From the NCBI RefSeq assembly GCF_003991155.1, contig NZ_CP031297.1: a DNA stretch of 64,000 nucleotides; one strand, 5' to 3'. Made by a program: the position numbers. Shown here piece after piece: positions 33,001 through 36,000 of the stretch. Each line of letters opens with the position of its first letter. The first letter of the stretch is position 1. Source of the DNA: Escherichia coli. Its GTDB lineage: Bacteria > Pseudomonadota > Gammaproteobacteria > Enterobacterales > Enterobacteriaceae.

Positions 33001-36000
33001 TCTCCGCTCACAGAGCAGGATAAGGCGCTTATTGAGCAAGGAAAGCAAATTGCCCAAAAGGCCCAGAAGATGGAAATGCCATCTCTGTTGCAAAACCAAC
33101 ACATGGACGAGGCTCAGGCCGAAGCCAAGGCATTTTTCAAGCAGCTCCAAACTACTAACCCAACGCTCAAGGAGATGCACCGGAAACAGGCTGAAAAGGG
33201 TATCTACTCTGACCATCGGATACTGGTTTTCGCCTCGTTGTCTCTTGGCGAACAGGGGTTAGATGACGTCCTAACGGCGGTGTCAGGCCAGCCTGATTCT
33301 GTAATTGTGTTCCGTGGCATCCCGGAAGGAATGAACTTGGGGCAGGGAGTTAAAGCTATTCAGGCGCTCGCGGCCAAAAAAGACCCAGTGCCGAACATCA
33401 TCATCAACCCTACGTTGTTCAAAACGTACAACATCACAGCCGTTCCCACGATTGTGATGCTGGAGGATGAGCCGCTGCCTGGCGAACAACCAAACGTCGT
33501 CGCCCAGGTCTCCGGGTTGTCCGACCCGGTATGGTTGGCTCGGGAAGTGGATAACGGAGAAAAAGGCGATCTCGGCGTTAAGGGGCCGGTGGAGAAAATC
33601 AGTGAGCCAGACCTTATTGATGTTGCCAAGAAACGCCTTGCCAATATCGACTGGGAAGAGAAGAAGAAACAGGCTATAGAGCGCTTCTGGACCAAGCAGA
33701 ATTTCAATGAGCTGCCAAGAGCGCCAAAATCTCGAACACGAGAAATTGACCCTAGCGTCATGATCACCAGTGACATCAGCACTCCGGATGGCACTGTGTT
33801 CGCTCACGCGGGTGACGTGATCAACCCATTGTGCGATCCGAAGGAAGTTTGCAAGCCTGGAACGCGGCCATTTACCCAAGCGGTCGTAGTTTTCGACCCG
33901 CTGGACAAAAAGCAAATGGAACTACTCGCCAAGAAGCTGCCTGAAATCAAGCTGGAGCCTGGCGTACAACGGATCACCTATATCGCCACAGAGTTCGACA
34001 AAGACAAAGGCTGGGATTCCTACAAGAGTGTCACCGACAACTTTGACGCGCCGGTATATCTGCTGACGCCAGATCTGATTACCCGGTTCGAGCTGGAGCA
34101 CACACCGAGCGTCATTACTGCCAGAGGCAAGAAGTTTGTTGTCCGCGAACTTGCTGAGGAGGGCGGTGAATGATTTTTGCCCCGGCTTTCCAACCAATTA
34201 AAGACGTCGGCACAGGTTCGTTTGTCGCTGCTGAGGTACTGGCTCGTTGGTACGACGAAGGCCGGGTTCTTACACCATCCTCTCTGTCATCTCCTCCTTA
34301 TTGGGGACTGGTGGATATGGAGATGGCACGGTTCATTCAGGACAACCTTCATTATTGCTTGGATCTGTACCCGGCTCTCTTTCTGAATGTCTCCGAACAA
34401 ACTTTGCAATCAGACGTCATCTTCAAGGCGTGGTGTAGGGTTGTCCGCGACATTGCTAAAAATCACTCATCACGGCTTGTCATCGAGATTACAGAGGGCA
34501 TTCAGGACGCCTCTCTCGCATCGAGATGGGAGGCTCTGACCGAAATAGGGGTTGAGCTGGCGCTGGATGACTATGGAGACAAAAACTCTTCTCTGGATCG
34601 CCTGAGCCGTTATGACTGGCACTATTGCAAGTTTGACGCGAGAAGACTGCGGTCGCTTGAAGACTACCCGGCCATCCTCCACTGCCGCCGAAAAGGCATA
34701 CAGCTCATTGCTGAGCAGGTGGAGAGCTTCCCATTGGGGGAGAGCGCCAAATTACTTGGACTGTCATGGCAACAAGGTTTCTATCACGGGAAGCCTGCTG
34801 TCATGGAGAAAAATTTGAATTACGTAAAGGCCTTACCATGATGCAAAAAATTCTACGGATCATGGCCGTTAGCGCGGTCTTTTGGGTTGGTTCGGTATCG
34901 GCTGACCCTGGGTGCCAGAATGCGGAAGTGATCGGCGGAAAACTGATTACTGACATCTGCTGGAGCTGTATTTTCCCTATCAAAGTAGCAGGGGTTCCTA
35001 TAAGTGGTGGAGGCGGATCATTCCCGAGTGAAGCCGTAAGCAACCCTCTGTGTATGTGCAAGGATAATCTAGGGGTCCCTCGGCCTGGAGTCACCACTTC
35101 TATGTGGGAGCCAGCACGGCTCGTTGAATTTCAGAGAGTGCCTGGCTGCTCATCAGTCTTGAATGGTGTCAGGTTCCCGTTTGATAGGACTAACCAAGGG
35201 CATCATGGCATGGGAGACATGGATGGTGGTGATGGTTCTTTTATGCACTATCACTACTATGCGTTTCCTCTGTTGGTGATGCTCGATTTATTTATTAAGC
35301 AGACCTGTAATGCTGATGGGTATATGGATCTCGACATCATGTACATGTCGGAGCTCGACCCGACCTGGAACAATGATGAGCTCGCTTTTTTTACCAATCC
35401 AGAGGCGGCGGCAGTAGCAAACCCAATTGCGGCGGCTGCGTGTACTGCTGATGCTGTCTCATCAACCGCTGGAAAACCTTTAAAACAGCTTTTCTGGTGT
35501 GCTGGTTCATGGGGCACCCTGTATCCATTTAGTGGCAACCAGAATGGTGGAAAAGGTGTTATCCGCGATAGCAGTCTTCTTAGCACAAGGGTTCTGGCTG
35601 CTTTGCATCGCCGGGGGTTAGCGTGGAAGACAATGGGTTCTGAGGCTATGTGTAGAGGCGTTATTAGCCCAACACTACCCAAAACGCAGTACAAATTCAC
35701 GCTATTGCATCCGGTTCCAGAGACAAACTCATCTCACGTAATTGGCGAATCCACTCTTACGTGGGGTCTGGCGCGAACTATACCGGCAATTGGGCAAGAC
35801 CCTATTTACACCATCTGGCGATGGAATGATTGCTGTAACAATTGAGCAGACCCTAACGAATTTGCACGGGCATTTTAGATTATGCCCCAAAAGGGCCACT
35901 ACACGTACAGGTGGCCCTTGTCTTCTCAGATAGCATGGGAAGGTTGAAATGGAGAACACAATGCGAAGTCATAATTACTTTATGAAAGCTGTGGCCTCGC

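What the first reader, a model, noticed from the sequence alone, without database searches (positions are those of the whole stretch)
34170..34841. Stand-alone EAL domain gene translationally coupled between traW and traU
The 223-aa product keeps the EAL-domain motif order: EVLxR, N, EITE, DDYG, KFD, EQVE, QxG. It has no sensor or GGDEF domain. Its start overlaps the traW stop and its stop overlaps the traU start (ATGA), so it is made with the pilus assembly proteins. Local c-di-GMP hydrolysis during mating could switch the donor from a biofilm to a transfer state, or serve as a checkpoint for pilus biogenesis. Alternatively it is a degenerate c-di-GMP receptor.
Basis: partly seen in the sequence, partly recalled or inferred. 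Interest (0 to 1): 0.5.

Follow-up and report, generated by a model that had tools for sequence, protein, structure and literature searches.

The report
EAL gene inside IncC pilus operon
A small single-domain gene of the kind that normally breaks down the bacterial signal c-di-GMP really does sit between two pilus-assembly genes of an IncC multidrug-resistance plasmid; it is already annotated and shown to be switched on with the transfer genes, but I found no paper that tested what it does.

Summary
ORF 34170-34841 (+) encodes a 223-aa protein that is only an EAL domain (Pfam E=7e-25; AlphaFold pLDDT 90.7; TM 0.73-0.79 to solved EAL phosphodiesterases). Its ATG overlaps the traW stop (ATGA), and its stop overlaps two candidate traU starts (ATGATG).

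The window is IncC plasmid backbone. The gene is vcrx082 of pVCR94 and is annotated "EAL domain-containing protein" in about 800 plasmids. Published RNA-seq shows it depends on the master activator AcaCD (RPKM 504 wild type, 1 in the acaCD deletion, 1302 complemented), within the predicted dsbC-traU operon.

New here:
- Every relative whose neighbourhood I checked, down to 28-33% identity (Vibrio, Aeromonas, Edwardsiella, Azomonas, Comamonas), lies between traW and traU.
- All 13 EAL signature residues are present. Eleven are invariant across the family.
- Loop 6 (GDKN, not G[A/T]G[Y/L]) and the EGxE motif (here EQVE) differ from the norm, which makes it a "class 2" EAL.
- It is the fastest-evolving protein in the operon, yet under purifying selection (dN/dS 0.12-0.28).

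The most likely reading is an active phosphodiesterase made only in transfer-competent donors, much as PdeH is made within the flagellar regulon. Enzyme activity, substrate and any effect on transfer remain untested. No paper in the searched library reports its function.

The parts
34170..34841 (+). Stand-alone EAL-domain gene, the orthologue of pVCR94 vcrx082 (WP_000575345.1); 223 aa, no signal peptide, no other domain.
   Evidence: ORF. Pfam EAL E=7e-25. AlphaFold pLDDT 90.7. Foldseek top hits are all EAL phosphodiesterases. PGAP annotation. vcrx082 lies at pVCR94 58690-59361, offset 24520 from the window.
34156..34163 (+). Shine-Dalgarno sequence GAGGAGGG inside the 3' end of traW, 6-7 nt upstream of the EAL ATG.
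   Evidence: Read directly from the sequence.
34170..34173 (+). ATGA overlap: EAL start codon and traW stop codon.
   Evidence: The same 4-nt overlap is called in L002, L003, L004, L005, L008, L009, L097 and L098; in L099 and L100 the overlap is 8 nt and 1 nt.
34838..34843 (+). ATGATG: the EAL stop (TGA, 34839-34841) overlaps two candidate traU start codons (34838 and 34841).
   Evidence: pVCR94 annotates traU from the first ATG; PGAP annotates it from the second.
32908..34173 (+). traW (vcrx081), a TrbC-TraW fusion; periplasmic pilus-assembly protein; the gene immediately upstream.
   Evidence: Pfam TrbC_Ftype at residues 107-230. TIGR02743 TraW at residues 221-414.
34838..35845 (+). traU (vcrx083), the gene immediately downstream.
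   Evidence: Pfam TraU E=1.9e-98.
28935..32945 (+). Upstream genes of the same operon: dsbC 28935-29642, traC 29639-32086, vcrx079 32101-32418, trhF (S26 peptidase) 32415-32945.
   Evidence: Operon dsbC(vcrx077)-traU(vcrx083) as predicted in Table S3 and Dataset S1 of PMC4207636.
28840..28868 (+). AcaCD-binding motif of the dsbC promoter. The transcription start maps to about 28904-28906. This is the only published promoter for the operon that contains the EAL gene.
   Evidence: Coordinates transferred from pVCR94 (motif 53360-53388, TSS 53424-53426; Table S3 of PMC4207636) using the offset 24520 that is fixed by the dsbC and vcrx082 coordinates. Sequence shown.
28801..28824 (+). Strong intrinsic-terminator-like hairpin (10 pairs plus a T-run) that closes the preceding gene and separates it from the dsbC operon.
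   Evidence: On the + strand between dsbC and traU the scan found no promoter-like site, and only three short terminator-like hairpins (5-6 pairs), fewer than shuffled sequence gives.

Best explanation
The ORF is the IncC backbone gene vcrx082. It encodes a cytoplasmic, single-domain EAL protein that is a long-standing, fixed part of the dsbC-traC-vcrx079-trhF-traW-EAL-traU operon of A/C-like F-type conjugation systems.

Shown:
- It is transcribed only when the master activator AcaCD fires the dsbC promoter.

Inferred:
- It is translated from its own strong ribosome-binding site, in register with traW and traU.
- Because every EAL metal-binding, catalytic and phosphate-binding residue is kept across the whole family, it is most likely an active, metal-dependent cyclic-di-GMP phosphodiesterase of the 'class 2' type (non-canonical loop 6).
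- It would lower c-di-GMP, globally or near the secretion machine, specifically in the subpopulation of donor cells that is building mating pili.
- That would move those cells away from the high-c-di-GMP matrix-producing state, or relieve a c-di-GMP brake on the transfer apparatus.
- The logic parallels PdeH (YhjH), the stand-alone EAL enzyme made as part of the flagellar regulon to keep the motor free of c-di-GMP inhibition.
For: Identity and fold:
- Pfam EAL scores 88 bits against a cut-off of 31.
- phmmer hits to TBD1265, CC3396 PdeA, RocR and PA3825 align E22/R26/N73/E106/E109/D133/D134/K154/E182/Q202 with RocR E175/R179/N233/E265/E268/D295/D296/K316/E352/Q372.
- The AlphaFold model has pLDDT 90.7. 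Its Foldseek hits are solved EAL domains, TMq 0.66-0.79 over the 50 listed; the named active phosphodiesterases are at 0.73-0.79.

Signature residues:
- All 13 listed in PMC11537037 are present.
- E22, R26, N73, E106, E109, D133, D134, K154, E182, E185 and Q202 are invariant in 24 family members down to 28% identity.

Selection:
- dN/dS is 0.12-0.28, which indicates purifying selection.

Genomic position:
- It lies between traW and traU in all 15 relative loci whose gene order I read: IncA, IncC type 2, V. penaeicida, Edwardsiella (3 loci), Azomonas, the Comamonas-type protein (2 loci) and six metagenome contigs.
- The family is a tight clade. After four species-level members at 44-97% identity, the next best hit in 185,579 species genomes is a generic EAL at 31% or less.

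Expression:
- RPKM is 504 (wild type), 1 (acaCD deletion) and 1302 (complemented), differentially expressed in both comparisons.
- An AcaCD ChIP-exo peak and a transcription start lie upstream of dsbC, with predicted operon dsbC-traU.
- A GGAGG ribosome-binding site and overlapping start and stop codons are present.

Origin:
- GC content (50.9%) matches the backbone (51.5%), so it does not look like recent cargo.
Against: - Loop 6 is DDYG-D-K-N-SS. In 74 generic EALs those positions are [A/T/S]-G-[L/Y/N]. Lack of loop 6 conservation defines class 2 EALs, whose catalytic function is described only as 'potentially activatable' (PMC3229569; PMC7005169).
- The glycine next to the catalytic base (EGxE; G in 71 of 74 generic EALs) is Q, R, K or C in every family member aligned, never G.
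- The position that carries E or T in the generic AEetG helix is an invariant W45.
- It evolves faster than any neighbour: 72% identity between IncC and IncA, against 87-98% for TraU, TraW and TraC.
- SXT/R391 elements, the closest well-studied relatives, transfer without such a gene (operon dsbC-traC-s093-trhF-traWUN; PMC4542580).
- A truncated allele that loses K154, E182 and Q202 is recorded with 104 member sequences. At least one lineage therefore seems to tolerate loss of the gene.
- No enzymology or mutant phenotype was found in the searchable literature.
Confidence: 0.5

Rival explanations
1. It is a c-di-GMP sensor or 'trigger' protein rather than a bulk-degrading enzyme. It would bind c-di-GMP (with slow or no turnover) and, through family-specific surfaces, contact a component of the transfer machinery, for example the TraC ATPase or the coupling protein. 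Pilus assembly or DNA transfer would then depend on the second-messenger level.
For: - Loop 6 is non-canonical and EGxE is replaced by EQVE.
- A set of family-specific invariant residues has no counterpart in generic EALs: W45, D49, W88, R119, W120, R144, W150 and C153. These could form a partner interface.
- It evolves fast compared with its neighbours, as expected for an interface that co-evolves with a partner.
- Its position within the T4SS operon is strictly conserved.
Against: - Receptor-type or non-catalytic EAL proteins usually lose metal and catalytic residues. BvgR lacks 12 of 13, and STM1344/STM1697 lack signature residues (PMC11537037; PMC3229569).
- Here 11 of the 13 are invariant and the other two nearly so.
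- No partner is known, and I could not run any interaction test.
Confidence: 0.2
2. It is an active phosphodiesterase whose preferred substrate is not c-di-GMP but another cyclic or linear (di)nucleotide, such as 3'3'-cGAMP, c-di-AMP, or a CBASS-type defence signal. In that case it would protect the plasmid-bearing cell or the mating process from nucleotide-based immune signalling.
For: - The catalytic core is conserved, but second-shell positions near the base-binding region differ from generic EALs in every family member (W45; loop 6 D/K/N; Q183).
- Solved EAL entries labelled as cyclic-dinucleotide phosphodiesterase (6ifq, 6ih1) appear among the sequence hits.
Against: - There is no match to any PADLOC defence model.
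- The two PHROG matches are weak, and both are to families of unknown function.
- The gene sits in a late T4SS-assembly operon expressed in donors. From general knowledge, plasmid anti-defence genes are usually found in a leading region expressed early in recipients.
- The substrate-contacting residues Q8 and R26 and the D133-D134 pair are the standard c-di-GMP set.
Confidence: 0.1
3. It is a working c-di-GMP phosphodiesterase that plays no part in conjugation itself. It would be a long-resident passenger that uses the AcaCD-driven operon for expression and changes host behaviour (motility, biofilm, virulence) to the benefit of plasmid or host. Alternatively it is nearly neutral.
For: - It is the fastest-evolving protein and has the highest dN/dS in the operon.
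- It is absent from the SXT/R391 version of the same operon (PMC4542580).
- A truncated allele is found in many assemblies.
- From 6 to 10% of plasmids are reported to carry c-di-GMP turnover genes as accessory functions (PMC10333796).
Against: - A passenger would not be expected to hold exactly the same slot, with overlapping codons on both sides, from 100% down to 28% protein identity and across Gamma- and Betaproteobacteria.
- Members of this family were found nowhere else.
Confidence: 0.15

Closest known systems
PdeH (YhjH / STM3611) of E. coli and Salmonella: stand-alone EAL c-di-GMP phosphodiesterase
   Same: [quoted passage not shown]
- From general knowledge, it is transcribed as part of the regulon of a surface organelle (the flagellum), so that the enzyme appears together with the machine it protects.
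- Here the EAL is co-regulated with the conjugative pilus genes by AcaCD.
   Different: - It is not an orthologue. No NCBIfam equivalog model comes near its cut-off (best 42.5 bits against 1200).
- PdeH is chromosomal and is not embedded between structural genes.
- The IncC protein has a different loop 6 and EQVE instead of EGxE.
- Its activity and target are unknown.
MrkJ: EAL phosphodiesterase linked to type 3 fimbriae genes, also carried on conjugative plasmids
   Same: - It is an EAL-domain gene linked to a surface-fibre gene cluster.
- It is found on conjugative plasmids. PMC5023117 turned up in the search (title and abstract only); details about MrkJ come from general knowledge.
   Different: - From general knowledge, MrkJ acts on fimbrial gene expression through the PilZ regulator MrkH.
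- No PilZ or GGDEF gene is annotated in the part of the IncC backbone covered by this window.
- The IncC gene lies inside a T4SS assembly operon, not next to a fimbrial regulator.
YdiV / STM1344 / STM1697 subclass of stand-alone EAL-like proteins
   Same: - They are single-domain EAL-fold proteins of enterobacteria.
- Some members are plasmid-borne (PMC10333796).
   Different: - Those proteins lack the signature residues and neither bind nor hydrolyse c-di-GMP (PMC3229569).
- The IncC protein keeps all 13 signature residues.
DgcK / DgcL diguanylate cyclases of SXT/R391 integrative conjugative elements
   Same: They are c-di-GMP turnover genes carried by the sister family of conjugative elements, and were proposed to aid dissemination by manipulating c-di-GMP (PMC3915882; PMC4542580).
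   Different: - They have the opposite enzymatic direction (synthesis).
- They sit in variable cargo hotspots, not in the conserved transfer operon.
- They are present in only some elements, whereas the EAL is in nearly all A/C-like plasmids.

Membership tests
EAL domain (Pfam PF00563) | Sequence match to the family HMM above the curated gathering score | tested here: met
   88.2 bits against a cut-off of 31.3, E=7.1e-25, residues 3-209, profile positions 13-236 of 236. The first ~12 profile positions (N-terminal helix) are absent because the ORF cannot extend upstream.
EAL domain (Pfam PF00563) | EAL barrel fold | tested here: met
   AlphaFold2 model with pLDDT 90.7 and pTM 0.87. Foldseek against PDB: all 50 listed hits are EAL domains, including TBD1265, RocR, MucR, YahA, YkuI and BlrP1; E down to 2.8e-14, TMq 0.66-0.79.
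Catalytically competent EAL phosphodiesterase (class 1 or 2) | The 13 signature residues: substrate Q, R, D, D; metal E, N, E, D, K, E, Q; loop-6-stabilising E; catalytic-water E (PMC11537037) | tested here: met
   Q8, R26, D134, D156; E22, N73, E106, D133, K154, E185, Q202; E109; E182. These were mapped through the RocR and TBD1265 alignments. Eleven are invariant in 24 family members. Q8 is at least 90% conserved, and D156 varies only in the most distant members.
Class 1 EAL (predicted or proven active) | Conserved loop 6 (D-D-F/Y-G-[T/A]-G-[Y/L]-S-S) as well as the signature residues | tested here: not met
   Loop 6 is DDYGDKNSS. At positions 137-139 the family has D/K/M, K/I/A and N/F, whereas 74 generic EALs have A/T/S, G (58 of 74) and L/Y/N. 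[quoted passage not shown]
Class 1 EAL (predicted or proven active) | EGxE motif around the catalytic base | tested here: inconclusive
   Both glutamates (E182, E185) are invariant. The glycine (71 of 74 generic EALs) is Q, R, K or C in all family members aligned. The effect on catalysis is unknown.
c-di-GMP-specific phosphodiesterase | Hydrolysis of c-di-GMP to pGpG | not testable with these tools
   This needs purified protein. No report was found in the searchable library.
Class 3 / YdiV-like non-catalytic stand-alone EAL | Loss of catalytic and metal-binding signature residues | tested here: not met
   The signature residues are retained, so it is not a member of this subclass.
A/C-like F-type T4SS assembly operon (dsbC-traU) | Co-transcription from the AcaCD-dependent dsbC promoter | tested here: met
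   From published data read here: AcaCD motif, ChIP-exo peak and TSS upstream of dsbC; predicted operon dsbC(vcrx077)-traU(vcrx083); vcrx082 RPKM 504, 1 and 1302. In the window, the scan found no sigma-70-like promoter on the + strand within the operon, and fewer terminator-like hairpins than shuffled sequence gives.
A/C-like F-type T4SS assembly operon (dsbC-traU) | Conserved position and gene overlaps in relatives | tested here: met
   It lies between traW and traU in all 15 relative loci whose gene order I read, at 28-92% identity. The traW and EAL coding sequences overlap in the 13 loci where a caller annotated both genes (not in L010, where no traW was called, nor in L019, read only from ORFs).
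A/C-like F-type T4SS assembly operon (dsbC-traU) | Requirement for conjugative transfer | not tested
   No mutant data were accessible. The IncC conjugation TraDIS study (Hancock et al. 2020) is not in the library. SXT/R391 elements lack the gene.

The most novel reading that the evidence does not exclude
The EAL protein is a dedicated regulatory part of the A/C-like type IV secretion machine. It would be a local c-di-GMP 'gate' that docks on the transfer apparatus through its family-specific tryptophan- and arginine-rich surface, making pilus assembly or DNA transfer of a clinically dominant multidrug-resistance plasmid family depend on the donor's second-messenger state. Alternatively, it clears a nucleotide immune signal during mating. 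Either would be a first example of a cyclic-dinucleotide enzyme built into a conjugation operon as a conserved part.
Probability: 0.15. Interest if true: 0.7.

Novelty: already known. Interest (0 to 1): 0.38.

Why it matters
IncC plasmids are among the main carriers of carbapenemase and cephalosporinase genes, and they also mobilise SGI1-type resistance islands. Whether c-di-GMP, the switch between biofilm and free-living states, feeds into their transfer is not known.

This gene gives a direct handle on that question. It is a single small ORF, expressed only with the mating apparatus and fixed in that position throughout the plasmid family. Point mutants and a reporter assay could probe it.

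- If it modulates transfer, it would link biofilm signalling to the spread of resistance, and it could become a target for reducing transfer.
- If it does nothing measurable, it is an unusually persistent passenger.

In either case the gene's existence is not new. Only its function is open.

Tried and rejected
- **Literature.** All ten full-text searches and several paper and supplement reads found no functional study. The name vcrx082 occurs in the main text of one paper only, as an operon member. Three relevant papers are not held: Hancock 2020 (requested), El Mouali 2017 (requested) and Madsen 2018 (did not appear in the search). Absence of evidence is therefore limited to this library.
- **Pseudogene or chance ORF.** Rejected. 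dN/dS is 0.12-0.28 and catalytic residues are invariant.
- **Recent foreign cargo.** Rejected. GC is 50.9% against 51.5% for the window, and the position is conserved in relatives down to 28% identity.
- **Similar EAL genes in other plasmids' transfer operons.** The nearest non-family plasmid EAL hits (pT75-VIM, pESI) are not in tra operons.
- **Defence or anti-defence and phage families.** PADLOC gives nothing. The only PHROG matches are weak, to two families of unknown function.
- **NCBIfam.** Only sub-threshold matches to the EAL parts of large phosphodiesterases, so no named equivalog.
- **Truncated allele P0011.** The contig ends 13 nt after the stop codon of the truncated ORF. The 28-nt foreign tail is not in the window, and no PLSDB plasmid matches across the junction. 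What interrupts the gene stays unidentified.
- **Model geometry.** I could not inspect model coordinates, so distances such as C153-C172 or the loop 6 conformation were not measured.
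Full report
**1. What is in the sequence**

The ORF listing finds a 223-codon ORF at 34170-34841 on the + strand. It cannot be extended upstream. Its product matches Pfam EAL (PF00563) at 88.2 bits against a cut-off of 31.3 (E=7.1e-25). The match covers residues 3-209 and nothing else is found, so there is no GGDEF, PAS, REC or other sensor domain.

The flanking ORFs are:
- Upstream, a 421-aa TrbC-TraW fusion ("traW", 32908-34173).
- Downstream, TraU (Pfam E=1.9e-98).
- Further upstream, an S26 peptidase (trhF), a 105-aa ORF and traC.

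The junctions read GGCGGTGAATGATT and CCATGATGCAA.
- The EAL start overlaps the traW stop by 4 nt (ATGA).
- The EAL stop overlaps an ATG at 34838 by 4 nt, and a second ATG at 34841 by 1 nt.
- pVCR94's annotation uses the first of these for traU and PGAP uses the second.
- A GAGGAGGG Shine-Dalgarno sequence lies 6-7 nt before the EAL ATG (34156-34163).

**2. Where the window comes from, and what is already on record**

The 3.1 kb around the gene matches 841 PLSDB plasmids. Of these, 790 match over at least 80% of the query and 443 at 99% identity or more. Nearly all are typed IncC, MOBH, MPF_F. A tblastn search finds the protein at 60% identity or more in 815 plasmid records. It is also present in 86 of 5,426 complete E. 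coli genomes, always full length.

PGAP calls it "EAL domain-containing protein" (WP_000575345.1). Older records call it "diguanylate phosphodiesterase".

The window is collinear with pVCR94 in this region, at an offset of 24,520. The gene is vcrx082. [quoted passage not shown]

The supplements of Carraro et al. 2014 (PMC4207636) give further detail:
- An AcaCD motif, a ChIP-exo peak and a transcription start lie upstream of dsbC, and the predicted operon is dsbC(vcrx077)-traU(vcrx083).
- RNA-seq values for vcrx082 are RPKM 504 in the wild type, 1 in the acaCD deletion and 1302 after complementation, significant in both comparisons.
- For comparison, traW is 132, 0 and 496, and traU is 44, 9 and 208.

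Transferred to the window, the AcaCD motif lies at 28840-28868 and the transcription start near 28905. Just upstream is a strong terminator-like hairpin at 28801-28824. The scan found no sigma-70-like promoter on the + strand inside the operon, and fewer terminator-like hairpins than shuffled sequence gives.

So co-expression with the pilus-assembly genes under the master activator is published fact, not just inference from overlap.

All ten full-text searches found no paper that tests the protein's activity or a mutant. Three relevant papers are not in the library.

**3. Is the domain likely to be catalytic?**

phmmer against PDB sequences aligns the protein with TBD1265, CC3396 PdeA, RocR and PA3825. 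The RocR alignment reproduces the published RocR numbering:

| This protein | RocR |
|---|---|
| E22 | E175 |
| R26 | R179 |
| N73 | N233 |
| E106 / E109 | E265 / E268 |
| D133 / D134 | D295 / D296 |
| K154 | K316 |
| E182 | E352 |
| Q202 | Q372 |

A published list of 13 residues needed for EAL activity has four substrate contacts, seven metal ligands, the loop-6-stabilising Glu and the catalytic Glu (PMC11537037). All 13 are present here.

An AlphaFold2 model built on 22 family sequences has pLDDT 90.7. Its Foldseek hits are all solved EAL domains, with TMq 0.66-0.79 over the 50 listed. The active enzymes TBD1265, RocR, MucR and YahA score 0.73-0.78, and YkuI and BlrP1 0.78-0.79.

Three features count against assuming activity. 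I compared the family with 74 generic EALs pulled from species genomes:
- Loop 6 is G-D-K-N instead of G-[A/T/S]-G-[L/Y/N].
- The glycine of EGxE (71 of 74 generic EALs) is Q here.
- The AEetG helix carries an invariant W45.

That comparison set was retrieved with a DDYG pattern, so the Y at position 135 carries no information.

Published classifications place EALs that have intact signature residues but an unconserved loop 6 in class 2, "potentially activatable" (PMC3229569; PMC7005169). Activity is therefore likely but not certain.

**4. Evolution and distribution**

Two searches of the 5.8-billion-protein collection recover only 38 clusters, at 28-100% identity. A scan of one genome for each of 185,579 species finds four members: a Trichlorobacter MAG, Shewanella profunda, Edwardsiella anguillarum and Azomonas macrocytogenes. 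Identity then drops sharply to 31% or less, which is generic EAL territory.

I read the gene order around the EAL gene in 15 relative loci. These were IncA pCf-VIM, an IncC variant, V. penaeicida pTUMSAT-OK2, three Edwardsiella loci, Azomonas, two loci carrying the Comamonas-type protein, and six metagenome contigs. Some of these proteins are only 28-33% identical to the window protein.
- All 15 have the order traW-EAL-traU.
- Where the contig reaches far enough, the full dsbC-traC-orf-trhF-traW-EAL-traU order is seen.
- The traW stop overlaps the EAL start wherever both genes were called.

The closest plasmid EALs outside the family are not in tra operons.

In a 24-sequence alignment the invariant columns include E22, L24, R26, N73, E106, E109, D133, D134, G136, K154, E182, E185, Q202 and G203. 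Family-specific invariant residues are W45, D49, W88, R119, W120, R144, L145, W150 and C153.

Against the window, the EAL is the most diverged protein of the operon in every comparison:

| Comparison | EAL | TraC | TraW | TraU |
|---|---|---|---|---|
| IncA | 72% | 98% | 94% | 87% |
| pTUMSAT-OK2 | 40% | 77% | 57% | 83% |

Where dS is not saturated, dN/dS is 0.28, 0.17 and 0.12, against 0.00-0.16 for the neighbours. The gene is therefore under purifying but comparatively relaxed selection, with the constraint concentrated on the active site. GC content (50.9%) is that of the backbone.

**5. Interpretation**

*Shown:*
- The gene is real and intact.
- It has the EAL fold and keeps the signature residues.
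- It is AcaCD-dependent and sits inside the T4SS assembly operon.
- It holds that position throughout the A/C-like lineage.

*Inferred:*
- It is an active phosphodiesterase, because selection has preserved exactly the residues needed for metal-dependent hydrolysis over the full depth of the family.
- Its product appears only in cells that have switched on transfer, so any fall in c-di-GMP is confined to transfer-competent donors.

I consider this the most likely mechanism (about 0.5). PdeH in the flagellar regulon is the best functional analogy, though this protein is not a PdeH orthologue.

The rivals are:
- A sensor or trigger protein that contacts the machinery, favoured by the odd loop 6, the family-specific conserved surface residues and the fast evolution (0.2).
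- A working enzyme irrelevant to transfer, favoured by its absence from SXT/R391 and by a truncated allele seen in 104 member sequences (0.15).
- An enzyme for another nucleotide (0.1; no support from PADLOC).

What it regulates downstream is unknown. No PilZ or GGDEF gene is annotated in the backbone stretch covered by the window.

**6. Verdict**

The functional proposals are reasonable but untested.

The gene itself is already annotated, named, and shown to belong to the AcaCD regulon, so it is not a discovery. This analysis adds three things:
- Strict synteny down to 28% identity.
- Invariance of the catalytic set.
- The class-2 peculiarities of loop 6 and the EGxE motif.

It is a good, cheap experimental target with moderate interest.

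Noticed in passing
window 32908-34173: The gene called traW encodes a fusion. Residues 107-230 match TrbC_Ftype and residues 221-414 match TraW (TIGR02743, below its cut-off). Its start also overlaps the end of trhF by 38 nt (32908-32945). The same long overlap is annotated in relatives, for example L002 6736-6773.
   Followed up: partly
window 41601-41721 and 46436-46556: A perfect 121-nt direct repeat, 4,835 nt apart, with both copies in intergenic DNA. One lies upstream of the AAA-ATPase gene and the other between exo and the DUF3150 gene. It may be a duplicated regulatory region.
   Followed up: partly
L096 6001-6475 (metagenome/isolate assemblies); corresponds to window 34170-34618: A truncated allele of the EAL gene (P0011, 153 aa, 104 member sequences) diverges after codon 149 into foreign sequence, GTAAGCGTAAACTGACCGCCGTATGTAG, and the contig ends there. 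The truncation removes K154, E182 and Q202. The inserted or joined element could not be identified.
   Followed up: partly
window 34626-34628 and 34683-34685 (codons C153 and C172): C153 directly precedes the catalytic K154. It is invariant in the family, whereas generic EALs have I, V or L there.
   Followed up: no
window ~6720-6728 and ~61551-61552: The window lacks two insertions present in the reference IncC plasmid pGMI17-002_1. One is a 1,329-bp ISVsa5 (IS10-like) copy; the 9 bp at window 6720-6728 are aligned on both sides of the gap. The other is a ~1.9-kb group II intron carrying ltrA.
   Followed up: partly
window 34170-38756 versus L003 (IncA): Synonymous divergence between IncC and IncA jumps from 0.24-0.47 (traC to traW) to 1.1 in the EAL gene and to saturation in traU and traN. 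This suggests a recombination boundary at or near the traW/EAL junction.
   Followed up: no
L099 8731-9258: In one distant relative of the operon, whose EAL is 28-30% identical to the window protein, a DUF2726 gene is inserted between traU and traN.
   Followed up: no
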